From NCBI RefSeq assembly GCF_035084215.1, contig NC_090341.1:15624001-15688000 (forward strand): a stretch of 64,000 nt of DNA. The letters are read 5' to 3'. This stretch comes from Heptranchias perlo (lineage: Eukaryota). Below the pieces are notes generated by a model. It was not told the origin of the DNA, made no database searches, and worked only from the letters and a program-made list of their open reading frames with translations. The translations under genes and the position numbers were made by a program. Shown one piece after another: positions 11,661-56,700 of this stretch (position 1 is the stretch's first letter; the number at the start of each line of letters is the position of its first letter).

Positions 11661-14600
11661 CCCTTTGCAACAAAGGCTCTTTCGCTATTACTGTAAACCC
11701 AGCAGCTCTGGGCCGAATAGGCTCACCATACAGAAACACTGAGACTGAGCTCCGATCAAAATCAGGCGCTGCAAAAAAAACTCATCTCAATCCTCCATCC
11801 CGGTCTGACTCTCAATTCCCAATCTCAGTCTGAGTCTCAATTCCCAATCCTGGTCTGACTCTCAATTCCCAATCCCGGTCTGACTCTCAATTCCCAATCC
11901 CGGTCTGACTCTCAATTCCCAATCCCGGTCTGAGTCTCAATTCCCAATCCCAGTCTGAGTCTCAATTCCCAATCCCGGTCTGACTCTCAATTCCCAATCC
12001 CGGTCTGAGTCTCAATTCCCAATCCCAGTCTGAGTCTCAATTCCCAATCCTGGTCTGACTCTCAATTCCCAATCCCGGTCTGACTCTCAATTCCCAATCT
12101 CAGTCTGAGTCTCAATTCCCAATCCTGGTCTGACTCTCAATTCCCAATCCCGGTCTGACTCTCAATTCCCAATCTCGGTCTGAGTCTCAATTCCCAATCT
12201 CAGTCTGAGTCTCAATTCCCAATCCCAGTCTGAGTCTCAATTCCCAATCCCGGTCTGACTCTCAATCCTCCATCCCGGTCTGAGTCTCAATCCTCCATCC
12301 CGGTCTGAGTCTCAATTCCCAATCCCAGTCTGAGTCTCAATTCCCAATCCCAGTCTGAGTCTCAATTCCCAATCCTGGTCTGACTCTCAATTCCCAATCC
12401 CGGTCTGAGTCTCAATTCCCAATCCCGGTCTGACTCTCAATTCCCAATCCCAGTCTGAGTCTCAATTCCCAATCCTGGTCTGACTCTCAATTCCCAATCC
12501 CGGTCTGACTCTCAATTCCCAATCCCGGCCTGACTCAATTCCCAATCCCAGCCTGACTCAATTCCCAATCCCAATCTGACTCCATTCCCAAACTCAGTCT
12601 GACACTGTCCTCAATCCCAGTCTGACTCTCAATCCCCAATCCCAGTCTGATTCTCAATCCTAGTCTGATTCTCAGTCCCCAATCCCAGTCTGACTCTCAA
12701 TCCCCAATCCCAGTCTGACTCTCAGTCCCCAATCCCAGTCTGACTCTCAATTCCCAATCCTAGTCTGACTCAGTTCCCAATCCCAGTAAGACTTTCAATC
12801 CTCAATACCAGTCTGACTCTCAATTCCAAATCCCTGTGTCTGCTCTAACCTCATTCTGTCAACCCCAACCCAGTCTCAATTCTAACCCAAATACTAATTT
12901 TATGGGGCAGCTATGCTGCACATTTTGCATTGTGCAAACTGATTATTGTGTTACCTAACAGGACGGACAGTGTAACTAACTGTTGTCTAACTTCACTGAA
13001 ATAATTTAGCCAGTAATTATATCGTGCACAGAAAGTCTTGGAGTGCACAATGTTGTATAGCCTGGAGTGGCTATGCAACTTAGATTTCTTGAATTTTCCA
13101 GAAATTCCAACAGCCATTCTACACCCCAGGATATGATCATAATATGAACAGCTGAAGGTGAAAACCTAAAAGAGAGTTTTGATAAATGTACAGGGCTATA
13201 TATACAAAAGAAGGCAGCAATTTCTTTATACTTTGTTACTGAGTTGCAGTGTTGAGTATTTATCTTACATAATGCTGTAAACTGAATTGTGATTTGCCAA
13301 GCCACATGAGGCTAACTAGAGGAGATAATCTCACACCACTTCGACTTTGCCCTGGTTGATGACGTTTAAAAGTTGTCATAAGATCCACTAACCTGACTGT
13401 AATACAAAGCTTTTGAAGTTAGGAAAACAGGATAGTCAGCACTTAATTTAATTTAGTGCAGAATCAACAAAACTTGATCACCTATCTAGAAAGTAATACA
13501 AACAAAGTGGAAATCACTGTCCCAATCCTGGTTATTTTTCAGTATCAGATCCAGTTCTGGTATATCTATCCCAGTATTAATCCCAAAACTTGATCCGAGT
13601 CTCAGCATCAATTACAGTTTCCCGTTATAAAATACCCTTTTCAGCTGTAAAGAGGGATAAACTGAAAAATAAAAACTGGAAACAACATTTTATATAGACA
13701 CTTTCCTTTGACAAGGTAAATATTTGCTAAAATAAACCTAAATTTAGGGATTTCACTAAGCTTTCTAATTTGGTAGTAATTTACATTCTCAGAGGGGCCA
13801 CTGGGATGGCAGGTGTGAGAAATTGGAGAAAAAAAATCAAACAGGGATAGAATAGAGTGAGCATTACTCTGCACTTGGTTTTGCTGTGCCTGTTTGATAC
13901 TGAAACTTGGTGCTTAAAATGGGAGAGTGTTCCATTCCTCAGCATTGACATCCTTCACCTTGATCAGCACAAAAAAATTATCACAAACTAAGAAAGTGTG
14001 ACATTTTGATGTTGAGGTTTTTGAAACCTACCTAAAGTGTCTTTGCTTACACCTAAGAATTTATGTGAACTATAATCTGGTTGCTCACCTCTACTAAAGA
14101 AACAAAGACTTGCTTTTATGTAGAGCCTTTCACGATCACAGGATGTTCCAAAGTGCTTTATAGCCAATGAAGTACATTTGAAGAGTAGTCACTGTTGTAA
14201 TTTAGAAAATGCAGCAGCCAATTTGTGCACAGCAAGCTCCCACAATGAGATAAATGATGAGATCATCTGCTTTAGGTGTTGGTTGAAGGCTAAATGTTGG
14301 CCAGGACACCGGGAGAACTCCCCTGTTCTTCGAATAGTGCCGTGGGATCTTTTTACATCCACCTGAGAGGACAGATGGGGCTTCGGTGTAGCGTCTCACC
14401 TGAAAGACGGCACCACCGACAATGTTGCACTCTCTCAGTACTGCAAAGAAGTGCCAGCCTAGGTTATGTGCTCAAGTCTCTGGAGTGGGGCTTGAACCCA
14501 CAATCTTCTGACTTAGAGACGAGAGTGCTACCCACTGAAAGAAAGAAAGAAAGACTTGCATTGATACACTCAGAGTACTGTGCACAGTTCTGGTCTCCAT

Positions 14601-32600: not shown

Positions 32601-35600
32601 GTTACAGGCTTAACTATCTCTCCCCAGAAGATAGGAAATAACAAGCAGTAGCATCCACTCCGGTAAATTGCAATGTAAATTGGACTGGGCATAAGGTCCC
32701 TAAATAGTAACCTTTATGTGGCGGTTTATTGCTGATGGTCTGGTCCTTCTGTCTCTGTTAGCTTCAGACAGGCTAACAGACCTGAAGGAAAAAAAATTAA
32801 CCAGTACAAAGCAAGTTTAAATATATGTCTGTTAAACTAAAAAAAGAGCTGCCAATCAAATACATATCCAAACAAAACCGTAAGATGCTTGTATTTGAAT
32901 TGAATAGCTTGCCCGTCCCTTAGATGTCTGATGCAGTACAGTATCTCCGTTCTGGGTTTTGTGTATCAGAGCAAGTTGGGCCATTTTCTGTGAGTGAACC
33001 AGGCTTTTCACCCCTTATGACAGAAAGAAAAGAACCATCATGGGCAAAAATGCTTAATTTCTGTCACAATAATGATAGAAATAATAGGATGGATTACTAA
33101 AAAAAAACGTTACCAGGAGCAGAATAGTACCTTGGCTTGGCACTGTGTGTATGCATACATTCACCTACTTGCAAGGGCTGTCAGGTCATTAACATGTAAT
33201 TCAAATCTGCCTTTCTCCTTCAGCAGTAGCCAAAATCAAAAACAAATATTCCACTTAGGCTCAAATTGGGGTTGTTTACATTTAACTGAGTCCCACCACT
33301 TCATATTTGCAACTCTGGAAAAGAGGAAGGGGAAAATGGAAATTTTAATCTTCAAGACAGTGGCAGAAATAAATCCACATGTTGATAAAATAAATCATTT
33401 TTAATGGACCATGTCCGCCCCATTTCCCACACTTCTGCCCTCACCCCTCCCCCACCCTCCCAGAACCACAATATGGTCCCCCTTGACTTCACATTCCACC
33501 CCACCAGCCTTCACATTCAAGGGATCATCCTTTGCCATATCCGCCAATTCTAGCGCGATGCCGTTACCAAACACATCTTCCCCTCCCCTCCCCTTTCAGC
33601 ATTCCAAAGGGACTGTTCCCTCCGTGACACCCTGGTCCATTCTTCCATCACTTCCAACACTCACTGCCCTTCCCATGGCAACCTCCCTTACGAGCGCAGG
33701 AGATGCTACACCAGCCCTTTCACCTCCTCTCTTCCCACCGTCCAGGGCCCCAAACACTCCTTCCAGGTGAAACAGCGATTTACTTGTACCTCTTTCAATT
33801 TAATATACCGTATTCTCTGCTCATGATGCGGACTCCTCCACGTTGGGGGGACCAATTCAGATTGGGTGATCGCTTTGCTGAACACCTCTGTTCAGTCCTC
33901 AAGTGTGATCCTGAGTTTTCGGTTGTTTGCCATTTTAATTCTCCGTCCCACTCCCACTCTGACCTCTTGTCCTTGGCCTCCTAAACTGTCCCACTGAAGC
34001 TCAATGGAACAGCACCTCAACTTTCGATTAGGCACTTCACAACCTTCCGGACTGGAAATTAATTTCCATAACTTCAGATCATAACCACTGTTCCCATTTT
34101 TTCTGACAGCAGGTGCTGGTAATGGTTCTGCTGTTGCCATTTACAGCTCCTCTAGACCCATCTTTTGTTTCTTTACTTGTCCCATTACCACCTTCCTTGC
34201 CTTGCACCATCATCCCTTTTGTCATTTAATGAGTCCTGCCCTCCACCCTATCACAGACCTTCCCTTTTGTTCTCCCCCCTCCCCCCACACTTTCCCTGGT
34301 TCTATACTTGCCTAAAACTGTTAAATCTCAAACTTCTTCCAGTCCTGATGAAAAGTCATCAACCTGAAATGTTAACTCTGTTTCTCTCTCCACAGATGCT
34401 GCCTGACCTGCTGATTATTTCCAGCATTTTCTGTTTTCACATCATTTTTAATATTTGAATGCTTAGAGGATTTTTTTGATAATACCCATATAAGTGAATA
34501 GAAGAAGCAATGACTTGTTGTAGATTTAAAGTAATTATTTAGATCTTCAGCCAGAAGTGCTGAGTGGATGAACCATCTCGGCCTCCTCCCGATATCTCCA
34601 CCATCACAGAAGCCAGTCTTCAGCCAATTTGATTCACTCCACGTGATATCAAGAAATGGCTGAGTGCACTGGATACAGCAAAGGCTATGGGCCACGACAA
34701 CATTCCGGCTGTAGTGCTGAAGACTTGTGCTCCAGAACTAGCCGCGCCTGTAGCCAAACTTTTCCATTACTGCTACAGCACTGGCATCTACCCGACAATG
34801 TGGAAAATTGCCCAGGTATGTCCTGTCCACAAAAAGCTGGACAAATCCAATCCGGCCAATTACCGCCCCATCAGTCTACTGTCAATCATCAGCAAAGTGA
34901 TGGAAGGTGTCGTCGACAGTGCTATCAAGCAGCATTTACTCACCAATAAGCTGCTCACCGATGCTCAGTTTGGTTTCCGCCAGGACCACTCTGCTCCAGA
35001 CCTCATTACAGCCTTGGTCCAAACATGGACAAAAGAGCTGAATTCCAGAGGTGAGGTGAGAGTGACTGCCCTTGACATCAAGGCAGCATTTCACCAAGTG
35101 TGGCACCAAGGAGCCCTAGTAAAATTGAAGTCAATGGGAATTAGGGGGAAAACGCTCCAGTGGCTGGAGTCAGACCTGGCACAAAGGAAGATGTTAGTGG
35201 TTGTTGGAGGCCAATCATCTCAGCCCCAGGACATTGCTGCAGGAGTTCCTCAGGGCATTGTCCGAGGCCCAACCATTTTCAGCTGCTTCATCAATGACCT
35301 TCCCTCCATCATAAGGTCAGAAATGGGGATGTTCGCTGATGATTGCACAGTATTCAGTTCCATTCGCAACCCCTCAGATAATGAAGCTGTCCGTGCCCTC
35401 ATGCAGAAAGACCTGGACAACATCCAGGCTTGGGCTGATAAGTGGCAAGTAACGTTCGCGCCAGACAAGTGCCAGGCAATGACCATCTCCAACAAGAGAG
35501 AGTCTAACCACCTCCCCTTGACATTCAACGGCATTACCATCGCCGAATCCCCCACCATCAACATCCTGGGGGTCACCATTGACCAGAAACTTAACTGGAC

Positions 35601-38600
35601 CAGCCATATAAAATACTGTGGCTACAAGAGCAGGTCAGAGGCTGGGTATTCTGTGGGGAGTGACTCACCTCCTGACTCCCCAAAGCCTTTCCACCATCTA
35701 CAAGGCACAAGTCAGTAGTGTGATGGAATACTCTCCACTTGCCTGCATGAGTGCAGCTCCAACAACACTCAAGAAGCTCGACACCATCCAGGACAAAGCA
35801 GCCCGCTTGATTGGCACCCCATCCACCTCCCTAAACATTCACTCCCTTCACCACCGGCGCATAGTGGCTGCAGTGTGTACCATCCACAAGATGCACTGCA
35901 GCAACTCGCCAAGGCTTCTTCGACAGCACCTCCCAAAGCCACAACCTCTATCTCCTAGAAGGACAAGGGCAGCAGGCACATGGGAACAACACACCTGCAC
36001 ATTCCCCTCCAAGTCACACATCATCCCGACTTGGAACTATATCGCTGTTCCTTCATCGTCGCTGGGTCAAAATCCTGGAACTCCCTACCTAACAGCAATG
36101 TGGGAGAACCTTCACCACATCAACTGCAGCGGTTCAAGAAGGCGGCTCACCACCACCTTCTCAAGGGCAATTAGGGATGGGCAATAATTGCTGGCCTTGC
36201 CAGCAACGCCCACATCCCATGAACGAATAAAAAAAAATTACATTTTGAGAATTCCATTTTAAAATCTTGTTTGTTGTACCTTAGGACCGTCCATTATCTG
36301 CCAGAGAACGAAGGAGACTAAAACAATCTCAAGAGGAGTTTCCTTATTCAGGTATTCGCTGGAGTTTCTTTTCTCTTAGCATTTTCTTCTTTTCCCCTCT
36401 TGAGATGTTGACCCCCTGCCGAGGTACAGTTCTACAGGTGTCGGAAGCCTTCTGGTATTTGCTCACATGGCCACTACTCATTTGTAAGACTTGAGAAGGA
36501 TTGTTAGCAGGCTATTTGATGGGGGCTGTTGCAGCCAAGCCCAATCATGATTTTAGTTGAGGTCATACACACACTTCGAGCAGGACTTGCTGCACAGTGC
36601 TGGAGAATCGGAATCCTTGCTGATTTTGCTCTCCATGGCCAAGGAGTGCAGAGGCCAACTGCAGTGCCCCTGCCACTACCATGGGCTGAAATCATAAAGA
36701 CATGCACAGACTGGGGATTGAATCCCAGATGTTCCCAGTCTGCATAGCTGAGCTGCTCATAGCAAACATTTCCTGAGCCATCAAGGCGAGCTATTCACTG
36801 GAGTTTAATCCCAAGTACCTGAAGTTTAAGTTAGAAAGCATACAGGAAGGTTCTTTCAGTGTAAAGCATTCCTTCCTCCCTCCACTCTAGCAATGTAATA
36901 TGAAAAACTGGGGTAAAAATCTCCCACCTGGATTGATATCATTATTGGACTTCCCCTCCTCCTCCCCCCACCACCCACAGAGATCCCACATCTCAAGTCT
37001 TACCTTGCACCGGGAAGCTGCTTTGGCAAAGTCACCTCATTGGTGCATTGCAAATCTGAATAATCAGCTTCTGGCACAGGTTTGGATGTCAATCAGGAGT
37101 TATCTAAGTCAGGAAATGACAACAGCTGTGTAATATTTTGCTCAGTCCGTACAGCTTACCCATGGTAATCGTTTCTCAATCCAGTCTGGTTTGTAGTTCC
37201 AAGAATTTTTAAGAGGTAGAGTTATCTTCCTACCCCCCCCCCCTCCTTTCTAAACTACATACAGAGTAACATTGTATTAATTCTGATTTATAAAGTTACA
37301 CTGATACTAATTGTGTGAGTTTCCTCGCCAGTTTCCACTTCAAGAAGGAGCTCACATTGTGTAGCTTTAGAAGCAAACTCATACGAAGAGAATCAAAATG
37401 TCAAAGTCAGCCGATCCTTATCAGATATTGCTATCCATCATGGAAAGGTAATGCTATGCTTCTTAAAATTTATTGTAGCGTGTTCTGTGCCACTTAGATT
37501 ACTATTAGTCGCACAAACCAAAACCTCATGCACACTAGTGCATAAGGAATTTGTCTTCCCTTAAGTATAAATGTATTTGAGCTCCCATTGCTTTCAGTGG
37601 GAAAAGAAACTTAACAGACTCAAGTCTTCTCTACTGCTGCTTAAACCTTAAAATAAAATTATTCTGATTATTTTATAATTGTTCATAAAACTAATGGTAC
37701 AATTAATTTTTTTTTAAATAACAGGAAGTGTTAAAAACATTACTGCAGTAGGCAGTGTTTTGGGATTTCATTCAAATCATTGAAGGTCTATGCACGACAA
37801 TCTACTTTTAATTCAAAGTTACTTCATTACAATTATCCATTAATTCAGTTTAATTTTAGCACTAAAAAGGTAAGTGCTGTTTTAATTAAGTTGCTTAATT
37901 TGAACTTCTGGATAATTATTTTTGTGCAAAAAATACATAAAGGAAAAAAATATATATAGTTATTTTAAAGGCCACTCATTTACAGTTTTTACAGAAAATG
38001 AGCAGTTTGGAATTCAATCCCCCAAACACTGATCAAAAATACTAGAATACTGTGTAATAAAAACAGAATTTCAGTTCTTCAGTTCTTGTAAATCAGTAGC
38101 TCTGATGACACATTTTGTGTTACATGGTGTAACTGAATAACCTCCAACTCACTTTGAGCACCACCACGGGAAATCTAATATATATGAAGGTCTTCCATCT
38201 TCTGTGCGTTTATCACTTTCATGTTACACTTGCCAAGTTTGGTTGTGCCAAATAACATTCATAAATCAAGAAACCATAACTGAATAGTTATGGAACTACC
38301 AGTGAACAGGCTGGGAGTGAAAACTACTAATAAAGAAGTACCAAGAGCTATAATATCAACCAATCAAAAATGAACAGTCAGCAAGAAGCTGCAATAAATT
38401 AACTAGCAAAAAAGAGAAGGGGGAAACCAATGAAACAATTAAGAATATTTTCAGGAAGCCTGTTACGGCATTGAGTAAAGAAGCTCAATCAAAAAGTAGA
38501 GTCTCTCAATGCTTCAGTATCAATGTGTCTGTCACTGCTATAGACTGCAATCCCAGAGTGCGCTTAAGGCTGCCTCATTCTCTCAGTTTAATATCGTAAT

Positions 38601-41600
38601 GTGGGCTTACAGACAGGAAGTCATGGCTAGCTCTATGAATGAGCAGTATTCCAGTTAATCATAACAAAACAATTCTGGTGCTTTAAAGACAAATCCCAAA
38701 TTCAGAACTCTGATTGGACAAACCAAACATGTTCTCCCATGTAGCCTTCTGATTAGAAAACAGATGGAAGGAAAACAAATTCTCAGAACAGCTGCCACCA
38801 TAGTTTGACCTGTTCCTAGCCCTGTTCTGTCGCGACACTACAGACTTCCTACAAAAACTCAGTACCCACGGACCAGTTGAACCAGGAACACTTCTCACCA
38901 CGATGGACGTCTCGGCACTTTACACCAGTATCCCCCACGATGACGGCATCGCTGCGACAGCATCAATACTCAACACCAACAACAGCCAATCTCCGGAAGC
39001 CATCCTACAACTCATCCGCTTCATCCTGGATCACAATGTCTTCACCTTTGATAACCAGTTCTTTACCCAAACACACGGAACAGCCATGGGGACCAAATTC
39101 GCACCCCAATACGCCAACATTTTCATGCACAAGTTCGAGCAGGACTTCTTCACTGCACAAGACCTCCAACCAACACTATACACCAGATACATCGACGACA
39201 TTTTCTTTCTATGGACCCACGGCAAGGAATCACTAAAGAGACTACACGATAACATCAACAAGTTCCATCCCACCATCAAGCTCACCATGGACTACTCCTC
39301 AGAATCAGTTTCTTTCTTGGACACACGAATCTCCATCAAAGACGGGCACCTCAGCACCTCACTCTACCGCAAGCCCACGGACAACCTCACGATGCTCCAC
39401 TTTTCCAGCTTCCACCCTAACCACGTCAAAGAGGCCATCCCCTATGGACAGGCCCTGCGAATACACAGGGTCTGCTCAGACGAGGAGGAACGCGATGGAC
39501 ACCTACAGACGCTGAAAGACGCCCTAGTAAGAACGGGATATGACGCTCGACTCATCGATCGACAGTTCCGACGGGCCACAGCAAAAAATCGCATAGACCT
39601 CCTCAGGAGACCAACACGGGACGCAACCAACAGAGTACCCTTTGTCGTCCAGTACTTCCCCGGAGCGGAGAAACTACGCCATGTTCTCCGCAGCCTTCAA
39701 CATGTCATCAATGAGGACAAACACCTCGCTATGGCCATCCCCACACCTCCACTACTCGCCTTTAAACAGCCACCCAACCTCAAACAGACCATCGTTCGCA
39801 GCAAATTACCTAGCTTTCAAGAGAACAGCGTCCACGACACCACACAACCTTGCCACGGTAACTTCTGCAAGACATGCCAGATCATCGACACAGATACCAC
39901 CATCACACGAGAGGACACCACCCACCAGGTGCATGGTTCATACTCCTGTGACTCGGCCAACGTTGTCTACCTCATACGTTGCAGGAAAGGATGCCCCAGA
40001 GCATGGTACATTGGCGAGACCATGCAGACGCTGCGACAACGGATGAACGGACACCGCGCAACAATCGCCAAACAGGAGGGTTCCCTCCCAGTCGGGGAAC
40101 ACTTCAGCAGTCATGGACATTCATCCACCGACCTTCGGGTAAGCGTACTCCAAGGCGGCCTTCGAGACACACGACAACGCAAAATCGTCGAGCAGAAATT
40201 GATAGCCAAGTTCCGCACCCATGAGGACGGCCTCAACCGGGATCTTGGGTTCATGTCACGCTACACGTTACCCCACCAGCGAACAAATGTTATCTGTTTT
40301 TAATATAATGGGTCATTTGCTGGCTTTCTCTGCCTTCCGGATGTCTCTGCCTCTCTCTGTTTTTTTTTTCCTGTTTGTTTTTTTGTTGAATGTGTATTCG
40401 GGGGTTCTGCAGGTGACACCTCTCTGTCTGAACACGGTGATTGCCTTGGCAACGGGCAGTTGCAGGGGCAGTCTGTAAACACCATGTATTGTTCTATATG
40501 TATAAATGCGTAGGCTTCAAGGAGCTCCTGAACATTTACCTGACGAAGGAGGAAGCCTCCGAAAGCTTGTGAATTTAAAATAAAATTGCTGGACTATAAC
40601 TTGGTGTTGTAAAATTGTTTACAATTAGCTCTATAAGGTAGGCCCCTAATTCTTTCAAGGTCCAATAGTTTTGATTTTAAAATTCTGTACCCTGCATATC
40701 TCCGCTGTGCTCTACTTCCCCTGCTGTACTCTACTTTCCTCTCTCTCCCTGCTCTTCCAATGTGCTCTATTCCTTGCCTGCCTCCACTACCCATTGTGCT
40801 GTAACTTCCCAGCTGTCAACCGTGCATCATTCTCTGGCTCAGAATGAGACCATGCTAAATATCACTTGCTGCCAGATCTCAGATTAGCCATAAGGAATGC
40901 CTCAATCAGCTAGTATAAAATTTAAAAGACTACAACTAAATATTGCTTTGCTATAATATTTCACCTTATGATAATTTACTTAATGACACATTAACACATC
41001 AGGCACTGTGGTGCACAAGATAAGGTGAGAGCTGAGTTGATATTTGCTTTTCCTTGTATTTAAAAGGCATGGTACGATGTACTTTAATATTTCCTTTAAG
41101 TCACAAGCAGAAATGTGGATGATTGTAACAAAGTATTATTTGGTGCTTTTTCATTTTATATAAATCATTTTAAGGATGTATTGAAGAAGAACTCTATATA
41201 ACTGCACGGAAATTATAATCGAAAGAACAAAATTCACTCTGGAGTATACAGTACTTTCTACATAGCAATCACCATACAAACTCAAGTTTTTAAAAATGAC
41301 ATCTGTTCTCAAAACAACTGATTGACTGACTGGAGGAAGAATGTACTATGAGCTATATTTTGTTTCATTTTGAATTATTGTATTATTTCATCCAAATTTT
41401 GCCAGGATGTAAATGAGTCATCCCATCGCCTTTCAGATGATGATGAGTATAGCTCTTCAACCAGCTCAACTGACAAATCAGAGGGGGACTGCAAAGAAGT
41501 GTGAGTACTTAAAGCTTTTGTCTTTTTTGTTTTATGTTGGTATTTCTAGTTAGTGAATCAGTTAACAAGGAAACTATTTCTGCCTCAAAGATGGACCTGG

Positions 41601-44600
41601 ATGAACATTCTATTTGAGTCTCCTTTACTGGTGATACAGATGCTGGTTGATCCACTGAAAAATAATGAAATGCCACCTCTGCATCAGTATATGGGTTGGA
41701 GAAGCAATTTTCACTAATAATGCTTTGCTGCTTCCCAAATGCACTGTTCATTTAGTATCGTGGAATCATCAAAGTGACACAAAATCTTGAAACTTCTATG
41801 TAATCATGGTGTGTGATGCAAAATGTCTGCATACTAAAGGTCAGTTAGTGTGACATCAATGGTGGAAACCACCTCAGCAGCTTCAACAGTCTCAATTTGA
41901 GGAAAGACTGGAGAATCTGGCATTTTTCAATCTTGAAAGGAGTGACTGAGAGATGACCGTACATGGGTGTATGGATAGAAAAAGGTACATCTAGAACGCT
42001 TCAAATTAAACCATGATAGTAGGGAAAGAGGATGCAGGTTCAAACTGATAAAAGACAAATTTAGAACTGATAGTCAGGAAAATCTTCTTTACACATAGAC
42101 TTCCAAGGTAGTACAGACTCTTAAAATCATTTAAACAGTTGGATGCTGTGATCAACATCCTCACCCCAACCCTGGGTTTTATTTTGATTAGGTGAGCAAA
42201 GATGGACCAAATGACTTTCCTCATTTGTATGAATCTTGTGATCACCAGACTCCCACAGCAACAGAGAGGCTGATGAAATGTACTTCAGTCTACAACTCAG
42301 ACCAACTTTGTTCCATAGGTGGAGTTATATATAACTGTAAAGGGGTGCAGACGGAATCGACCTTCAACTTTACTTAGGCCTCACCTGTATTACTAGAAAT
42401 GCATATTGGATTAGTGATTTCGAGCTAAACCAGCAGGAATTCTCATTTTTGCTTGTACAAAACATTGGGAAACTTTTAAGAAAATGGAAGCCTTGTCATT
42501 GAAAGTGCTCCTTGATGAACTAAATAAAGGCTAACCAGGAAATTCTTGATGTGGAGATGCCGGTGATGGACTGGGGTTGACAAATGTAAGGAATCTTACA
42601 ACACCAGGTTATAGTCCAACTGTTTTATTTGAAAATCACAAGCTTTCGGAGGCTTTCTCCTTCGTCAGGTGAGCGAGTGTGGGATTCCATGGAAGGTTAC
42701 CGCATTTATAGTCAGAGAACAATACCTGGTGATTACAGATAATCTTTCCAACTGCCTGTTGTCAAGGCAATCAAAGTGTTCAGACAGAGTGATGTTACCT
42801 ACAGGACCACCGAATACACAAACGGCCAGAACACAAAACAGAGAGAGGGAGAGAAACATCCGAAAGGAGGAGAAAGACAGAGAATGACCCGTTGTGTTAT
42901 AAACAGATAACTTTTTTTCGCTGGTGGGGTTACGTGTAGCGTGACATAAACCCAAGATCCCGATTGAGGCCGTCCTCATGGGTGCGGAACTTGGCTATCA
43001 ATTTCTGTTCGACGATTTTGCGTTGTCGTGTGTCTCGAAGGCCGCCTTGGAGAACGTTTACCCGAAGATCGGTGGCTGAATCGGGTAAGCGTTCTCCAAG
43101 GCGGCCTTCGAGACACACGACAACGCAAAATCGTCGAACAGAAATTGATAGCCAAGTTCCGCACCCATGAGGACGGCCTCAACCAGGATCTTGGGTTCAT
43201 GTCACGCTACACATAACCCCACCAGCGAAAAAAAGTTATCTGTTTTTAACACAACGGGTCATTCTCTGTCTTTCTCTTCCTTTCGGATGTTTCTCTCCCT
43301 CTCTCTGTTTTGTGTTCTGGCCATTTGTGTATTTGGTGGTCCTGTAGGTAACATCACTCTGTCTGAACACTTTGATTGCCTTGACAACGGGCAGTTGGAA
43401 AGATTATCTGTAATCACCAGGTATTGTTCTCTGACTATAAATGCGGTAACCTTCCATGGAATCCCACACTCGCTCACCTGACGAAGGAGAAAGCCTCCGA
43501 AAGCTTGTGATTTTCAAATAAAACAGTTGGACTATAACCTGGTGTTGTAAGATTCCTTACAGGAAATTCTTGACTATAGAAGTGCTTAAATATTACATTT
43601 TACTCAGTTGTTTCCTCCCGTATGACACAAGTGGCAGTACGAATGTGGCTTAGTCAACATTTGAGCTACGAGGAATATTCACGTGCCCCATCCTTTCCCC
43701 CTCCCCCATATTTAATTAACTGATTTTGAAAGATCTCAATGATTTACATGATCTTGAACAACCCAAATTCTCTAGTGCTGCTGCTATCTACACATTTCCT
43801 GTTTATCTTCTAGCAAACGTGATTCCAATGAAATGCATGATCTGGTAAAACTGATGACTCAGACATTGAGCATGGATTCAAAAGATTCCTATAGAGAAAA
43901 TCTAATGCCTGCTCCAGTACCAGAATTCAAACTACGGCGAAAGTATAGAGACACCCTGATTCTTCATGGGAAAGCTAAGGAAGATCCAGAGGATTTCTAT
44001 TTCAACGATTTTCCAACTGGTCTGTAGCAACTAGGAATACTTAATGCATATCTGAAATATTCTTTGTTCCATAAGTGAATTGAATGATTGGTTAATTAAA
44101 AATTATAGGTTTTTCTAATTTGAAGCACTTTTTAATTTTAGTACCTTTTTTGAGATTGAGGTGTAAATAAAATTATAAGTTGTGACCTCAGTTCCCCATT
44201 GCTGCACTATAGTTCAGCTTACTGTATTATTAAACCATTTCCTGTTTACTATTGTTTTGTTTAGAGGTTTTGTCTGTGCCAGAGAAGATCAAAAGAACAA
44301 TTCAAGCTCTACGAACAGATGTTGTAAAAGGATTAGGAGTAAAACTTTTAGAAAAAGTTTACAACATTATGGAAGATGATGATGAAGTCAAGAGGGAGGT
44401 AGGTTCCTCAGCTATTGCATTCATTGCATTTTTTAAGGAATTGTTCATTTGTCTTAGAGATCAATAGCTAATTATTTAAAATTAGTCTGATTTATGTAAC
44501 TATTTTAGGAATGCCTGCAGGAACACATGGGTGAAGAATTGTACAAGAATTACAGTATGAAGGTCCGACAGCTAAAGTTCTTTGAAGATAATTCAAATTT

Positions 44601-44604
44601 TTGA
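11509..44604 (+). CDS. NEK4: Serine/threonine-protein kinase Nek4, whole gene (16 coding exons, 808 aa)
   Basis: Exons join in frame to 2427 nt. N-terminal NIMA kinase domain ([26 protein letters not shown]). NEK4-type C-terminal motifs [29 protein letters not shown] and QLKFFE. Convergent with SPCS1, as in human. Confidence 0.95.
11780..12885. repeat. 25-bp minisatellite (~44 units) in NEK4 intron 1
   Basis: Unit AATCC(C/T)(G/A)GTCTGA(C/G)TCTCAATTCCC. Homogeneous in the centre and degenerate at the 3' end. Confidence 0.95.
14105..14540 (-). mobile_element. Deu-domain SINE (SacSINE1-like), near full length
   Basis: Reverse complement reads ...gtgggtagcactctc...gggttcaagccccactcc...gtgccgtctttcaggtgagacgcta...aaagatcccacggcactatt...gtgtcctggccaac... 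Confidence 0.8.
14569..15089 (+). mobile_element. 5'-truncated CR1 LINE 3' end inserted into the tail of a SINE
   Basis: [12 protein letters not shown]...[18 protein letters not shown]...[15 protein letters not shown] plus CR1 3' UTR. Flanked by TGATACA at 14562-14568 and 15090-15096. Confidence 0.85.
15090..15505 (-). mobile_element. Deu-domain SINE whose tail (14541-14568) is displaced by the CR1 insertion
   Basis: Same family as 14105-14540. Confidence 0.8.
15632..16654. mobile_element. MITE-like element, same family as 6028-6741 in opposite orientation, interrupted by a solo LTR
   Basis: Ends are GGGGGTAATTTTAACCCC and GAGGTCAAAATTCTGCCC. Shares internal blocks with the 6-kb copy. Flanks are AGT/AGT. 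Confidence 0.6.
15668..15878 (+). mobile_element. Solo LTR (211 bp)
   Basis: TGTTA...TAACA termini, internal TATATAA then AATAAA, near-TSD GTTGG/GTTGA. The host element resumes on both sides. Confidence 0.65.
23057..23323 (+). CDS. NEK4: NEK4 exon 2
   Basis: [43 protein letters not shown]...[10 protein letters not shown]; 267 nt; AG/GT boundaries. Confidence 0.95.
23991..24188 (+). CDS. NEK4: NEK4 exon 3
   Basis: [66 protein letters not shown]; 198 nt. Confidence 0.95.
25239..25346 (+). CDS. NEK4: NEK4 exon 4
   Basis: [36 protein letters not shown]; 108 nt. Confidence 0.95.
26616..26770 (+). CDS. NEK4: NEK4 exon 5
   Basis: [52 protein letters not shown]; 155 nt. Confidence 0.93.
27020..27580 (+). 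mobile_element. Old CR1-type LINE 3' fragment
   Basis: Decayed [17 protein letters not shown]...[15 protein letters not shown] motifs. Confidence 0.65.
27642..27780 (+). CDS. NEK4: NEK4 exon 6
   Basis: Open, phase-compatible exon ([21 protein letters not shown]...ASKYIK); ag|...|gtcaga. Confidence 0.8.
28343..28620 (+). mobile_element. 3' fragment of the same LINE family as 34543-36237
   Basis: Matches 35930-36237 (ctagaaggacaagggcagcagg...gggtcaaaatcctggaactccct...). A smaller 3' piece lies at about 25418-25525. Confidence 0.8.
28744..29151 (+). CDS. NEK4: NEK4 exon 7
   Basis: 408-nt open exon containing [13 protein letters not shown] and DDTFKLLQP; followed by gtagga. Confidence 0.88.
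29806..29862 (+). CDS. NEK4: NEK4 exon 8 (57-nt cassette-sized exon)
   Basis: [19 protein letters not shown]; pyrimidine tract plus cag acceptor, gtaagt donor, phase 0/0. Confidence 0.75.
31310..31450 (+). CDS. NEK4: NEK4 exon 9
   Basis: EDPSENV...[16 protein letters not shown]...TQK, followed by gtaagt; resembles the SEPSLSRQRRQK motif of NEK4. Confidence 0.88.
31762..31914 (+). CDS. NEK4: NEK4 exon 10
   Basis: [18 protein letters not shown]...[10 protein letters not shown], followed by gtttgt; 153 nt. Confidence 0.83.
33400..34440 (+). mobile_element. Older degenerate Penelope-like element 3' part (GIY-YIG remnant and terminal hammerhead motif)
   Basis: Broken frames resemble ...[16 protein letters not shown]......V.CHFNS. 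A CTGATGA...GAAA motif lies at 34345-34369. Confidence 0.7.
34543..36237 (+). mobile_element. 5'-truncated CR1/L2-group LINE with RT domain and one frameshift
   Basis: ORF 34687-35718: [30 protein letters not shown]. Continues in ORF 35618-36187 and ends in an A-rich tail. Confidence 0.92.
36285..36351 (+). CDS. NEK4: NEK4 exon 11
   Basis: [22 protein letters not shown]; 67 nt. Confidence 0.93.
37332..37447 (+). CDS. NEK4: NEK4 exon 12
   Basis: Phase-1 exon [39 protein letters not shown], followed by gtaatg; restores the frame between exons 11 and 13. Confidence 0.78.
38825..40625 (+). mobile_element. Young 5'-truncated Penelope-like retroelement (Neptune type) with uninterrupted RT + GIY-YIG ORF
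   Basis: ORF 38903-40303, open from about 38825: [20 protein letters not shown], Cys linker [12 protein letters not shown]...WYIGET...LRQRMNGH. Terminal hammerhead motif. Confidence 0.95.
40534..40574 (+). ncRNA. Minimal type-I hammerhead ribozyme (Penelope-associated)
   Basis: AUUUAC-CUGACGA-A-GGAGG-AAG-CCUCC-GAAA-GC-UU-GUGAAU: conserved core, helix I, helix II and palindromic AGCU helix III. Confidence 0.8.
41406..41500 (+). CDS. NEK4: NEK4 exon 13
   Basis: [31 protein letters not shown], followed by gtgagt; 95 nt. Confidence 0.92.
42636..42672 (-). ncRNA. Minimal hammerhead ribozyme motif (left arm of the palindrome)
   Basis: Reverse complement reads UCAC-CUGACGA-A-GGAG-AAAGC-CUCC-GAAA-GCUU-GUGA. 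Confidence 0.75.
43474..43510 (+). ncRNA. Minimal hammerhead ribozyme motif (right arm of the palindrome)
   Basis: UCAC-CUGACGA-A-GGAG-AAAGC-CUCC-GAAA-GCUU-GUGA. Confidence 0.75.
43814..44019 (+). CDS. NEK4: NEK4 exon 14
   Basis: [23 protein letters not shown]...[17 protein letters not shown]...DFPT; 206 nt. Confidence 0.93.
44265..44398 (+). CDS. NEK4: NEK4 exon 15
   Basis: [45 protein letters not shown], followed by gtaggt. Confidence 0.93.
44509..44604 (+). CDS. NEK4: NEK4 exon 16 (last coding exon)
   Basis: [31 protein letters not shown]. Confidence 0.93.
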   Translation, partial: ECLQEHMGEELYKNYSMKVRQLKFFEDNSNF

Positions 44605-47109
44605 CTGGTACCTAAAACAATTTTAACGGGTTAGTTCAATTTAAGAAGTGCCTTTTCACAGACACTGATCAGTTAAAATGTGTCAATCACAGCTGGAAAA
44701 CCCAATTGTCCGAATACCTACTGGCAAATCTTGGATTTTTTAAAAAACTTTGCACCATGCAATTGATGTCAAAGGAACTGTACAAAGGATTATGAAGCAG
44801 TGGACACTGTGTGTGCCTAGCCAGGACGTCCTACAGTTTGTGAATTAAAATGACTATTGCATCATATCTTTTCAATATCAACTCATGGTTTTTGGTGAAA
44901 TATTAGATGAACAGTTAAATATGTATCACATAGTATCGTTGATATGCAGTTGTTAATATTTTGTGTCACAAGATACCTACTTTACATATAGACAAGCAGT
45001 GTCTATCATGGAATTTACTTCACTTTTGGCTTTGATATCTTATATTAATGTGATTTAAGGATCCAAATATGTTGTATATTAAAGTGCTAAGTTTATTCAT
45101 AGGTCAGTTGAAATGATTGTTGTTCATCAGTTTATGTCTGTGGATAACTACACATTCTTTGTTTCTAGAAATTGCCCACAGACCACTGCACATTTTAGTA
45201 TGTGCTTTAAGAGAACTTTTTTCAAGCAACTCTGAAAATCCTTGACCCCCCCCCCCCCCCCCGCCCACTTTTTCTTTTTTTCTTTACTGTTCCATTTTCC
45301 TTTAAATTTTCTCACCTTCTCTCCTAAATTTCTGCTGGGGTACAGTTTCAGCCCTATTACTTCATACTAGTGGCTGAACTTGGTGAGCCTAGACAATGAG
45401 CAGCAGAAAGGTCCTCGCCTGAAATGCAAACAAGCAGTTTGTATTGTGGATGATTTTCCCTTTCTGACCCAGAGGGCTGAGGTCACTTTTAGTGCTTTTG
45501 ACACCACCCAACTGAGATGAGTTAACTCGGCACAGACCAGATTCAATCTTGGACATTCCTAATCTGTATGGTTCAGTACCATACCAAGCAGTGTATCCAC
45601 ACACACAGCCATGGGGGAAGCAAATTTCACTAGAACTCCTGTAACAATCTAGAAGTCTGCCTTCTAATGAGATTTCTACAATTTTCAAGATTTATGTGCT
45701 CAAACAAAAACAGAATACACTGCATATCTCAAAATTTTGACTTTGCAAGCTCATATGAATCAACGCGATCTGTACACTACATATTTAAGAATACAGAAAT
45801 ATAGGGGGAAGGGAGAAGGGGGATATAAATATGCCTATTAGCTGACATGTTAACCAAACCACAGACATATTGGTCCTTGTCATATGAGAGGAAACAAGTG
45901 AATAAAACTTCATATTCAAACACTTTCTATACACAGGAACTACCTGGATCAAGCATTTGCTTAGATCTTTCTAGCCACTGGCTTGTGCTTGAAATAGGAA
46001 ATAATTTCCCACAATAATAGTTTCACCTCCAACCAGACCAATATTATACCGAGAAAGATGATATGGTCTGTGTGCAATTTGTATTGTATTACTTAACAGA
46101 TAAACAGTAAATGAGCTTTAAGACACAATTGCAAATCATATCTAAATTCTTAATTAGGATTGTTGTATTGTTTCTTTAACTGAACTTTGTCTAGATATGT
46201 TCACAATAGTAAACATGGGATTCGTAAACTTGCAGTTATATTGCAACATTTGCTAGAAAAATAAAAATAATGTACAGTTTCCAAAGAAAATTGAATATAG
46301 TTTCATTTGGATTTTCTACAGGCTGTAACATTCCACACCTCTGAAGTCTTATCACTGTATCCAATTATGATTTATCTTACGGTCATAGTCTTATGATTTT
46401 AAAACAGAATAACTTAACTATAGAGCACTGGACTCCCAACCAGAAAAGATTGAGTTCAAGTCTCAGTCTTGACCAACCTTGCCGTCTCCTAAAAGGTAAA
46501 TTTGCCTGTCTCAGCCAAATAATAGGAGATGGAAACTGTTGAAATGCACTTGAAGGCAAGTTGACTAAGAAGTGCTGTTAGTATGTGTAGTTGTGTCCTA
46601 CCAATTTCATGTTTCAACAAGGTAAGATAGACTCATTAATTCCATTTTGAAATCTTTTTGAAGTTATATAAAGCAAATTTATCATTGCAGACTTGTGTAA
46701 TCTTTGCTGTGCTTAAGAACACTGATAAATTGTCACTTTTTATATGGTAATAATTCTTATGGCTCCCGCAGATTGCATTTTTTTGAGTGTCTACTGTTTG
46801 GATTAACTTACCTGTAATTAAGCTAGATTGAATCCAAAGACCTAGGTAATACTAAGTAGTTTTGTACAAATGAATTTTCTTTACTGTTTATAAAATTTAT
46901 ATCTTGTACTTCAAGTCTGGAGCCTACAAAGGTAAACGTTTGGCAGCTTAAGAAAACAGCTATATTTAATAAGGGCAATAGGACAATTAATGCATTTTTA
47001 AAAAAGTTATTGCTTTTTGCCACGGTCTGTCAGAATGTAAGAATGAAAAAGTACATGGAAGAGCATTTTTTTAAACTAGTCAGTCAAGTAGTGTGTAGTT
47101 CTTTCTTGA

Positions 47110-51012: not shown

Positions 51013-51021
51013 ACCTACATA

Positions 51022-51257
51022 TGATGTGGAGATGCCGGTGATGGACTGGGGTGGACAAATGTAAGGAATCTTACAACACCAGGTTATAGTCCAACAAATT
51101 TATTTTAAAATCACAAGCTTTCGGAGATTATCTCCTTCGTCAGATGATTGAATGAAAAGGTTCTCAAATCGCATATCTTATACGATGTTGGGACAGCATC
51201 ACACCAATCAAAAGGTGTCGTTGTTATTCAAACAGGCCAGTCACGGAGAACAGCACG
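51022..51257 (-). mobile_element. Short Penelope terminal (pLTR) fragment with hammerhead motif at 51109-51149
   Basis: The first ~75 nt nearly match 42548-42620. Possible TSD TACATA at 51016-51021 and 51258-51263. Confidence 0.8.
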
Positions 51258-53726: not shown

Positions 53727-56700
53727 CTGAAAAATTTAAAAGTTATTTTAGATTACTCAGTTATCTGAAAAACAAGCTATACTTTGGAATGAATTATCAA
53801 AATATTCAACCAGGACTGATAACAGTAACTTAAAATGGCAAGTACACAAAAGTTAAACTTCCATAAATATCATTTTAAATTGGTTCTAAATGGTCTGGCC
53901 AATGGCAGACAAAAAAAGTGGCTAGTACATAAGCTAAAACTTTACCAAGTGTCCCAACCTGGATGAATGTTTTAAAGAAAAAAAACATGGATTATTATAG
54001 TAGTCATTATACACATTTGCAAATCTTTAAAAATCAGATAGTATCTACTCACTCCACATGGTTAGAAGTTAAAGTAGAAAAAATGTTAAGTTAATTATTT
54101 CAGCTTCAGTTACATTTTTCTGAAATAATTTGCTGCATTTAAAAACAGGCAATCAGTAAACAAAACTACAATTGTATAGAATATATTCGCTGTAAGTTTA
54201 AGTAACTGAATTATTTTAATGAAATTAAGAATTCACTTCAATTTTTGCCAATATGCACACTATATAAAAAACACAACTTTCAATAAAGGAACTATGTTTT
54301 TAAAAAAAAATACCTAAGTTTTAATACCATCTAAGATTCTGGGTTTTTATTTAACCCCTCCCCAACAGGAAGGAAGCTAATATACTAGCAAGACAGATGA
54401 ATGGGGAAGTGAAGAGTCACAGAAGCTAGGAAGGCAGCAGGGAAATAAAAGCAATCAAAAGGGAAAGTAGAAACAGATTAGGGTTATGTACAAATAACAG
54501 GAATTTAGAAAAAATGTTTTAAAAAAATTCATTCATGGGATGTGGGCATCACCGGCATTTATTGCCCATCCCTAATTGCCCTCGAGGTGGTGGTGGGGAG
54601 CCGGCTTCTTGAACCGCAGTCCGTGTGGTGAAGGTTCTCCCACAGTGCTGTTAGGTAGGGAGTTCCAGGATTTTGACCCAGCGACGAAGGAACGGCGATA
54701 TATTTCCAAGTCAGGATGGTGTGAGACTTGAGGGGAACATGCAGGTGGTGTTGTTCCCATGTACCTGCTGCCCTTGTCCTTCTAGGTGGTAGAGGTGGTG
54801 GGTTTGGGAGGTGCTGTCGAAGAAGCCTTGGCAAGTTGCTGCAGTGCATCCTGTGGACGGTACACACTGCAGCCACTGTGTGCCAATGGTGGAGGGCATG
54901 AATGTTTAGGGTGTGGATGGGGTGCCAATCAAGTGGGCTGCTTTGTCCTGGATGGTGTCGAGCTTCTTGTGTTGTTGGAGCGGCACTCATCCAGGCAAGT
55001 GAAGAGTATTCCATCACACTCCACTTTTCCAGCTTCCACCCTAACCACGTCAAAGAGGCCATCCCCTATGGACAGGCCCTGCGAATACACAGGGTCTGCT
55101 CAGACGAGGGGGAACGCGATGGACACCTACAGACGCTGAAAGACGCCCTAGTAAGACCGGGATATGACGCTCGACTCATCGATCGACAGTTCCGACGGGC
55201 CACAGCGAAAAATCGCATAGACCTCCTCAGGAGACTAACATGGGACACAACCAACAGAGTACCCTTTGTCGTCCAGTACTTCCCCGGAGCAGAGAAACTA
55301 CGCCATGTTCTCCGCAGCCTTCAACATGTCATCAATGACGAACACCTCGCTATGGCCATTCCCACGCCTCCACTACTCGCTTTTAAACAGCCACCCAACC
55401 TCAAACAGACCATCGTTTGCAGCAAATTACCTAGCTTTCAGGAGAACAGCATCCACGACACCACACAACCCTGCCACGGTAACCTCTGCAAGACATGCCA
55501 GATCATCGACACAGATACCACCATCACACGAGAGGACACCACCCACCAGGTGCACGGTTCATACTCCTGTGACTCGGCCAACGTTGTCTACCTCATACGT
55601 TGCAGGAAAGGATGCCCCAGAGCATGGTACATTGGCGAGACCATGCAGATGCTGTGACAACGGATGAACGGACACCGCGCAACAATCGCCAGACAGGAGG
55701 GTTCCCTCCCAGTCGGGGAACACTTCAGTAGTCAAGGACATTCAGCCACCGACCTTCGGGTAAGCGTACTCCAAGACGGCCTTCGAGACACACGACAACG
55801 CAAAATCGTCGAGCAGAAATTGATAGCCAAGTTCCGCACCCACGAGGACGGCCTCAACCGGGACCTTGGGTTCATGTCACGCTACACGTTACCCCACCAG
55901 CGAACAAATGTTATCTATCTTTAATATAACAGGTCATTTGCTGTCTTTTCCATGTTTCTGCCTCTCTTTTTTTGGTGGTTTGTATATTCGGAGACCTTGT
56001 AGGTAACACCTGTCTGTCTGCACACTGATTGCCTTGGCAACAGGCAGTTGGAAAGAATGAATGTCTGTAATCACCAGGTATTGTTCTGTGATTTATAAAT
56101 GCGAGAGGTTCGAGGATTTCATTTCTACAGCATTCACCTGAGGAAGAAGGAAGCCTCCGAAAGCTTGTGAATTTCAAATAAAATTGCTGGACTATAAGTT
56201 GGTGTTGTAAAATTGTTTACAATTGAGTAACTCCTGCAGCTACATCCTGGGACTCATGTTTGGCCTCCAACAACCACTACTATCTTCCTTTGTGCTAGGT
56301 ATGACTCCAGCCATTGGAGAGTTTTCCCCCTTATTCCCATTGACTTCAATTTTACTAGGACTCCTTGGTGCCACACTTGGTCAAATGCTGCCTTAATGTC
56401 ACTCTCACCTCACCTCTGGAATTCAGCTCTTTTGTCCATGTTTTGACCAAGGCTGTAACGAGGTCTGGAGCAGTGGTCCTGGCGGAAACCAAACTGAGCA
56501 TCAGTGAGCAGGTTATTGGTGAGTAAGTGCCGCTTGATAGCACTGTCGACGATACCTTCCATCACTTTGCTGATGATTGAGAGTAGACTGATGGGGCGGT
56601 AATTGGCCGGATTGGATTTGTCCTGCTTTTTGTGGACAGGACATACCTGGGCAATTTTCCACATTGTCAGATAGATGCCAGTGTTGTAGCTGTACTGGAA

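What the first reader, a model, noticed from the sequence alone, without database searches (positions are those of the whole stretch)
42536..43573. 1-kb near-perfect palindrome of two Penelope 3' ends inserted in a single event
Seen in sequence: 481-bp arms, a 15-nt spacer and about 9 mismatches by eye (mostly transitions), all bracketed by a 12-14-bp direct repeat (CAGGAAATTCTTGA). The left arm has 35 nt more of the element terminus. Both free ends are element 3' ends. Inverted pLTR arrangements are known for Penelope elements. Inference: both target strands were primed, or the cDNA folded back, so this is a clean record of the integration mechanism. It lies in NEK4 intron 13, about 250 nt before exon 14, so the pre-mRNA should form a ~480-bp hairpin (ADAR/Dicer substrate, possible endo-siRNA source against this family) and the DNA could extrude a cruciform.
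Basis: partly seen in the sequence, partly recalled or inferred. Interest (0 to 1): 0.75.

Follow-up and report, generated by a model that had tools for sequence, protein, structure and literature searches.

The report
Mirror-image Penelope insertion in shark intron
This one-kilobase palindrome in an intron of a shark's NEK4 gene is a single old insertion of a Penelope-type jumping gene that landed as two back-to-back stubs, which is a well-described habit of these elements rather than something new.

Summary
The arms are 481 nt with 10 mismatches (9 transitions), there are 15 nt between them, a 14-bp target duplication flanks them, one arm has a 35-nt extension, and the whole lies in NEK4 intron 13, 240 nt before exon 14. 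It is a head-to-head pair of 5'-truncated 3' ends of a Neptune-type Penelope-like element (PLE), each with a minimal hammerhead motif. An inverted truncated copy, a 30-40-bp tail at one end and a TSD are the published typical PLE form (PMC8557442, PMC3846280), and this scan noted the same kind before in other genomes. Added here: the spacer is element sequence; the tail-less end is a recurrent family boundary; both arms share rare alleles, while their differences look private and CpG-biased (one source, later decay); the target is dyad-symmetric with TG/CA microhomology at both junctions. This fits priming from both target strands, shown in vitro for a Poseidon PLE (PMC11167929), but cDNA fold-back is not excluded. 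The empty site, reads across the centre, editing and small RNAs were not shown. Editing is likely but already known for Penelope repeats.

The parts
42536..42549 (+). Left copy of the 14-bp target-site duplication; its first 13 nt are dyad-symmetric (5 of 6 arm positions); its last 3 nt (TGA) also fit the element's tail end
   Evidence: tail end shared with copy C at 51022
42550..42584 (-). 35-nt PLE tail (38 nt with the microhomology), 66% A+C, on the left unit only
   Evidence: tail as described in PMC8557442 and PMC11167929
42585..43081 (-). Left unit: 5'-truncated 3' end of a Neptune-type PLE (endonuclease C-terminus, 3' region, hammerhead), including the 15-nt central spacer
   Evidence: 81-82% identical to window copies A and B
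42930..43079 (-). Last 49 codons of the GIY-YIG endonuclease domain (too short for a Pfam hit; assigned by alignment with copy A's ORF)
42636..42672 (-). Minimal type I hammerhead ribozyme motif, left unit
   Evidence: descriptor scan, 0 hits in 20 shuffles of the window; architecture as in PMC4209133
43066..43081 (.). Centre: 15-nt loop of element sequence plus a 1-nt overlap; lies at a natural 4-bp mini-hairpin and a 5-nt direct micro-repeat
43081..43561 (+). Right unit: inverted 5'-truncated 3' end without the tail; its last 2 nt (CA) also fit the TSD
   Evidence: 187 contig loose ends at 43561 in run X1
43474..43510 (+). Minimal type I hammerhead motif, right unit (sense in the NEK4 pre-mRNA, but inside the predicted long hairpin)
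43560..43573 (+). Right copy of the 14-bp target-site duplication
41406..41500 (+). NEK4 coding exon 13 (upstream host exon)
   Evidence: tblastn, GT donor at 41501, sequence
43814..44019 (+). NEK4 coding exon 14 (downstream host exon), found spliced to exons 15 and 16 in contigs of two runs
38804..40626 (+). Related PLE copy A in intron 12 (not part of the palindrome): RT, CX4CXXC linker and GIY-YIG frame open for 496 codons; used to classify the family
   Evidence: (RVT_1, E 4.4e-10)

Best explanation
One retrotransposition event of a Neptune-type PLE, since decaying neutrally. Shown: two outward-facing 5'-truncated 3' ends, a tail on one, a 14-bp TSD and shared rare alleles. Inferred mechanism: (1) a dimeric RT-endonuclease nicked both strands of a dyad-symmetric AT-rich site, leaving 13-14-nt 3' overhangs that both end in TG; (2) the top-strand 3' end paired with CA at the distal RT start site (tail end) of the element RNA and primed a cDNA of about 530 nt; (3) the bottom-strand 3' end was engaged at the proximal start site 38 nt upstream, which also ends in CA, fixing the tail-less end; (4) the halves were closed at the centre through a 1-nt overlap, either because both cDNAs ran to nearly the same end of one broken template or because the long cDNA snapped back at a natural mini-hairpin and filled in to meet the bottom-strand product; (5) gap fill made the TSD. 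Today it is an intronic passenger whose pre-mRNA hairpin is probably an ADAR substrate (inferred).
For: The structure matches the typical PLE form. In vitro, a Poseidon PLE nicks and extends both strands and starts RT at two sites separated by the tail (PMC11167929). The right arm ends at a recurrent family boundary: window copies A and B end there, and 187 X1 contigs have loose ends at 43561 with only 0.38 agreement. Microhomology is TGA on the left and CA on the right. Target symmetry of this grade occurs at 0.7% of window positions, 1.6% allowing other registers (noticed after the fact). Both arms share alleles held by 3-6% of family depth at 3 sites; 4 of the 10 arm differences are right-arm private (the left-arm letter is in 94-99% of family depth) and the other 6 have no row at the 10% threshold. 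5 of 10 differences lie at CpG sites, which make up 46 of 481 positions (p about 0.001).
Against: The two 5' ends differ by only 16 nt, while window copies reach 126 to at least 1,200 nt; independent truncation would seldom do this, and plain fold-back predicts it. Microhomology at the right junction is expected under fold-back as well. The in vitro work is on a Poseidon element, not Neptune, and the passages read do not report head-to-head products. No contig across the centre and no empty site appeared in the truncated tables. The X1 flank contig reaches only 24 nt into the arm, short of the 31 letters needed to count as bridging.
Confidence: 0.6

Rival explanations
1. Single-strand TPRT followed by pure self-priming: the one cDNA (or an antisense template) folds back at a small palindrome and copies itself, and the endonuclease resolves the intermediate at the tail boundary. 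The second target end is only captured, not used as a primer. This is close to the self-priming and EN-resolution ideas in PMC3846280 and PMC8557442.
For: The 5' ends are only 16 nt apart; the centre sits on a 4-bp mini-hairpin (-2.5 kcal/mol as DNA) with a 5-nt micro-repeat and a 1-nt overlap; the arms share rare alleles; palindromes at inverted junctions are reported for rotifer PLEs.
Against: It needs a separate step to stop exactly at the boundary that in vitro work identifies as an RT start site. A 1-nt overlap is a weak primer. The symmetric target with TG ends on both strands is unexplained.
Confidence: 0.3
2. Two independent insertions, or a later inverted duplication or gene conversion, produced the palindrome.
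For: The family is very abundant (12,778 X1 contigs laid on the 1,635-nt stretch), with 3 more copies in this window. Arm-to-arm conversion could have homogenised the arms.
Against: One 14-bp TSD brackets both units with no host DNA at the centre, the tail asymmetry is the canonical one, and the arms share rare alleles.
Confidence: 0.05
3. Assembly or library fold-back artefact.
For: Palindromes are a known assembly failure mode (general knowledge); no record across the centre was displayed.
Against: The arms differ at 10 sites with a CpG-transition signature and private alleles on both arms; there is a TSD; the host intron and exons are collinear on both sides; a single-copy X1 contig matches 43538-44700 with 0 differences.
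Confidence: 0.02
4. Functional reading: the hairpin is kept as a source of endo-siRNAs against this PLE family, or as a regulator of NEK4 exon 13-14 splicing.
For: Predicted duplex with a 172-bp perfect run and 475 of 481 in-register pairs. It has survived long enough to collect 10 substitutions, although closely spaced inverted repeats are unstable in other systems (PMC6961855 passages).
Against: Exon 14 is found spliced to exons 15 and 16 and starts at the expected acceptor. The arm differences are not compensatory. Such hairpins recur in this family and in other genomes. Intronic dsRNA is nuclear and usually meets ADAR rather than Dicer (general knowledge).
Confidence: 0.05

Closest known systems
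Typical EN+ PLE insertion with an adjacent inverted 5'-truncated copy, tail and TSD (Craig et al. 2021 PMC8557442, text and Fig. 2 legend; Arkhipova et al. 2013 PMC3846280, Pen2a_Av)
   Same: Head-to-head inverted unit at the 5' end, 30-40-bp tail at one end only, TSD around the whole insert (8-10 bp there), hammerhead in the terminal repeat.
   Different: Here both units are truncated to about 0.5 kb, so the whole insert is a near-perfect palindrome with no ORF between the repeats; the TSD is 14 bp; the host is a shark.
Poseidon element of Anolis carolinensis (PAc) in vitro (Frangieh et al. 2024, PMC11167929)
   Same: Two RT start sites separated by the tail, an AC-rich start region, an AT-rich target containing ATT, nicking and extension of both strands, a hammerhead in the pLTR.
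   Different: Different clade (no CX2-5CxxC linker in Penelope/Poseidon). [quoted passage not shown]
Minimal hammerhead motifs of metazoan PLEs (Cervera and de la Pena 2014, PMC4209133)
   Same: Short stem I, an extra nucleotide after the CUGANGA box, palindromic minimal stem III; dual motifs on opposite strands about 100-700 bp apart were noted in Schistosoma.
   Different: Here the two cores are about 810 bp apart; cleavage activity was not tested.
LINE-1 twin priming
   Same: Second target strand used as a primer, inversion inside a TSD, microhomology at the internal junction.
   Different: In L1 the second primer anneals far inside the RNA and the two pieces do not overlap, so no palindrome forms; here both pieces start within 38 nt of each other and overlap almost fully.
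Hyper-edited repeat hairpins: Penelope in lizard, palindromic Harbinger and Penelope in Xenopus (PMC5625713, PMC10636886)
   Same: Self-complementary repeat in a transcript; hyper-editing is also reported in elephant shark brain.
   Different: Editing of this locus was not shown.

Membership tests
EN+ Penelope-like element | Single ORF with RT followed by a C-terminal GIY-YIG endonuclease | tested here: met
   Met in related copy A (496-codon open frame, Pfam RVT_1 E 4.4e-10, YIDD, VVY...YIG, GLN). Pfam gave no GIY-YIG hit, so the nuclease is assigned by motifs. The arms hold only its last ~50 codons.
EN+ Penelope-like element | [quoted passage not shown] | tested here: met
   Copy A reads [18 protein letters not shown], with histidines downstream; definition from PMC8557442.
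EN+ Penelope-like element | Hammerhead motif in the terminal repeat | tested here: met
   4 descriptor hits in the window, all in family copies (both arms, A, C; copy B missed the descriptor); 0 in 20 shuffles. Rfam found no hammerhead family at E<=5 in 39000-44500.
EN+ Penelope-like element | 30-40-bp tail at one end only | tested here: met
   35 nt (38 with microhomology) on the left unit only; the same end in copy C; tail-less ends in copies A and B and in contig loose ends.
EN+ Penelope-like element | Inverted 5'-truncated copy adjacent at the 5' end, TSD around the unit | tested here: met
EN+ Penelope-like element | Empty site with a single copy of the duplicated target | tested here: inconclusive
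   The X1 contig runs unbranched from 43538 to 44700 at low depth; run X14 (another organism) has essentially no depth on the flank.
Neptune clade | CX2-5CxxC linker between RT and EN (Neptune and Nematis have it, Penelope/Poseidon lack it) | tested here: met
   CHGNFCKTC in copy [10 protein letters not shown] in copy B; criterion from PMC8557442.
Neptune clade | RT phylogeny grouping with reference Neptune rather than Nematis elements | not tested
   No reference PLE sequences were fetched; Neptune is preferred because it is reported from fishes.
ADAR or Dicer substrate hairpin | RNA-specific A-to-G changes or 21-22-nt reads from this locus | not testable with these tools
   Only contigs were available; all 6 A>G rows are present in the DNA run of the same sample and reflect family variation.
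microRNA precursor (Rfam mir-3199, mir-431) | Score at or above the family gathering threshold | tested here: not met
   66 and 63 bits against 100; 48 bits against 70; the matches are due to generic hairpin pairing.

The most novel reading that the evidence does not exclude
Shark Neptune palindromes are in vivo products of true double target-primed reverse transcription. A dimer nicks a dyad-symmetric target so that both 3' ends end in TG, each pairs with CA at one of the two internal RT start sites, and the two arms may even come from two different RNA molecules (the left arm has 5 non-CpG and 1 CpG private change, the right arm 0 and 4; Fisher p 0.048, noticed after the fact). With very many copies per genome, this would make sharks a natural dataset for the unresolved late steps of PLE integration.
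Probability: 0.25. Interest if true: 0.55.

Novelty: new member of a known kind. Interest (0 to 1): 0.24.

Why it matters
The locus itself is an ordinary, if unusually tidy, example of the published PLE insertion form. It has value only as one data point for an open question: how PLEs make inverted units and the one-sided tail (called undefined in PMC8557442; late steps unvalidated in PMC11167929). The junction features seen here (symmetric target, TG/CA pairing at both ends, fixed tail-less end, 16-nt offset at the centre) are countable across thousands of shark copies and would separate double priming from fold-back. If such palindromes are common in introns, they are also a large built-in source of dsRNA for ADAR in cartilaginous fishes.

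Tried and rejected
No whole genome is held for this window, so the genome-wide count of TSD-bounded palindromes could not be made. Rfam, window 39000-44500 at E<=5: 3 matches, all miRNA models below gathering score on the hairpin centre; rejected; no hammerhead family hit. Pfam on the 49-aa arm fragment: no hit. Run search: 14 runs listed, no RNA holder listed on record; the 6 rows with share under 0.1 (organisms B-D) are no evidence, and only X14 of them was laid. Reads were laid on the right arm and right flank only (43066-44700), 4 of the 14 runs, all contigs; X1, X5 and X6 are one sample, possibly the one the window was assembled from, so they are not independent support. The centre junction was not among the 11 joints listed, and 511 loose ends and 21,036 pieces were not shown: inconclusive. 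Editing: the 6 A>G rows occur in the DNA run too; rejected as evidence. Empty site in organism D: no cover of the flank. TSDs for window copies A, B, C: nothing longer than 6 bp; none has an inverted partner in the window. Age: K2P 0.021 between arms gives about 15 million generations at the epaulette-shark rate of 7e-10 (8 million without CpG sites; 4-76 million over the rate's interval); the rate is from another species and hairpin DNA may mutate or convert differently, so only 'old' is kept. Paper searches for a shark or vertebrate description of this exact form: (Penelope, shark, genome, inverted, Neptune) 0 papers; (head-to-head, palindrom) 2 papers, one of them PMC3846280; (twin priming) 2 listings, not read; the library lacks most subscription journals, so this does not show absence from print. 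Earlier-finding look-ups by sequence and by place gave nothing.

Full report
Observation. The palindrome is real as described. The arms 42585-43065 and 43081-43561 are 481 nt long and 15 nt apart. They differ at 10 of 481 positions: 9 transitions and 1 transversion. An exact 14-bp direct repeat brackets the insert at 42536-42549 and 43560-43573 and occurs nowhere else in the window. The left unit has 35 more nt at its outer end. The downstream exon matches NEK4 of sharks at 82-91% identity (top 8 of 26 hits). tblastn with the best hit maps 16 coding exons on the + strand, and splice signals place the insert in intron 13 (41501-43813), 240 nt before exon 14.

What it is. Each arm, read outward, encodes the last ~50 residues of a GIY-YIG endonuclease, then a 3' region with a minimal hammerhead motif. 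Three more copies of the family lie in the window. Copy A (38804-40626) has a 496-codon open frame with RVT_1 (E 4.4e-10), a CX4CXXC linker and a GIY-YIG core with two cysteines. By the criteria in PMC8557442 (passages) this is a C-terminal-EN PLE of the Neptune/Nematis type; Neptune is preferred, but no tree was built. The hammerhead descriptor hit 4 places, all in family copies, and none in 20 shuffles; the architecture matches PMC4209133 (parts 1-2 of 4 read).

Anatomy. The 15-nt spacer is the left unit's own 5' continuation, and the units overlap by one base at 43081; there is no host or untemplated DNA at the centre. The centre falls on a natural 4-bp mini-hairpin with a 5-nt micro-repeat. 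The left unit ends where copy C ends (tail end). The right unit ends where copies A and B end (tail-less boundary). In the DNA run X1, 187 contigs leave the alignment at 43561 with only 0.38 agreement in what follows, so many family copies stop at this same base while others go on into the tail. Both junctions share letters with the TSD: TGA on the left and CA on the right. The first 13 nt of the target are dyad-symmetric at 5 of 6 positions, which holds for 0.7% of window positions (1.6% allowing other registers, noticed after the fact). With symmetric nicks both target 3' ends end in TG, and both element ends end in CA.

One source, then decay. Of the 10 arm differences, 4 show the left-arm letter in 94-99% of family depth (right-arm private, all at CpG). 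The other 6 have no row at the 10% threshold, so the left-arm letter is probably rare (a missing row is weaker evidence than a row). At 3 sites both arms share a letter found in only 3-6% of family depth. Five of the 10 differences are at CpG sites, which cover 46 of 481 positions (p about 0.001). This argues against an assembly fold-back and against two unrelated insertions. The divergence (K2P 0.021) implies millions of generations at the epaulette-shark rate (PMC10587355 passages). One oddity: the left arm has 5 non-CpG private changes and the right arm none (p 0.048, post hoc). This may be chance or may mean two slightly different templates.

Mechanism. PMC11167929 (parts 1-2 of 4 and a term search; supplements not read) shows that a Poseidon PLE protein, predicted to be a dimer, nicks and extends both target strands, prefers AT-rich DNA with ATT, and starts reverse transcription at two internal sites separated by the tail. 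This locus fits that well: one arm starts at each site, on opposite target strands. I put 0.6 on both target ends having been engaged at the two start sites, with the centre closed either at a shared template end or by snap-back of the longer cDNA. Against it, the two 5' ends are only 16 nt apart, which pure self-priming predicts directly, and PMC3846280 (passages) proposed self-priming from palindromes at such junctions; I give that 0.3. All mechanistic steps are inferred; a single locus cannot separate them.

RNA consequences. On the NEK4 strand the insert folds with 475 of 481 in-register pairs, about -961 kcal/mol, and a longest perfect run of 172 bp. Nothing here shows editing: the 6 A>G rows are also in the DNA run of the same sample, and contigs cannot show it. 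Contigs in two runs guessed to be RNA show exon 14 starting at 43814 and joined to exons 15 and 16 over GT-AG introns. Editing is nonetheless likely: Penelope is among the most edited repeats in lizard and Xenopus tropicalis, and elephant shark brain has abundant hyper-editing (PMC5625713 and PMC10636886, passages). An endo-siRNA role or cruciform extrusion is untested. Closely spaced inverted repeats are unstable in yeast and depleted in human (PMC6961855 passages), so long persistence is mildly notable.

Not shown. There is no whole genome, so no genome-wide count. No record across the centre was displayed, and the flank contig reaches only 24 nt into the arm. No empty site was seen: the X1 contig is unbranched at low depth and X14 does not cover the flank. 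Two other opposite-strand joints inside the family were listed (one contig each in X1 and X6), a small hint of further inverted copies.

Comparison and verdict. An inverted 5'-truncated copy next to the 5' end, a 30-40-bp tail at one end and a TSD are the stated typical PLE form (PMC8557442; PMC3846280; PMC8969392 passages). Earlier notes of this scan report the same kind in other genomes (unchecked AI notes, not counted as support). My searches found no paper on this exact form in sharks, in a library that lacks most subscription journals. It is a new member of a known kind, interest 0.24. The worthwhile lead is the genome-wide junction survey that could separate double priming from fold-back.

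Noticed in passing
window 43569-43782: In both RNA-guess runs (X5, X6; one sample, one study) the intron-13 contig starts at exactly 43569, 8 nt past the hairpin base, while the DNA contig goes on to 43538. It could reflect a reverse-transcription block, heterogeneous editing or a graph effect; weak and unexplained.
   Followed up: no
window 38804-40626: PLE copy A in NEK4 intron 12 keeps a 496-codon open frame (RT to endonuclease end) and is sense to the gene. Its hammerhead and the right arm's could in principle form a dimer 2.9 kb apart, and it is inverted (82%) relative to the left arm, so the two bracket exon 13.
   Followed up: partly
window 55019-56224 and 51022-51147: Two more family copies downstream of NEK4: B (tail-less, with an in-frame stop, flanked by another repeat also present at about 34543-36200) and C (short, minus strand, with tail; only a 6-bp candidate TSD at 51016/51258).
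   Followed up: partly
run X1 contigs laid on window 43527-43561: Five contigs go back 35 nt from the tail-less boundary (43561 to 43527), i.e. a short head-to-tail duplication of about the tail's length somewhere in the family.
   Followed up: no
window 11660-12790: A 25-bp tandem array of about 30-40 copies starts just after NEK4 coding exon 1 (11509-11595), with a related ~49-bp GC-rich array at 10844-11293 just upstream.
   Followed up: no
window 43580-43627 and 45878-45925: 48-nt inverted pair at 81%, one arm just right of the TSD and the other beyond the last NEK4 coding exon; probably an old repeat.
   Followed up: no
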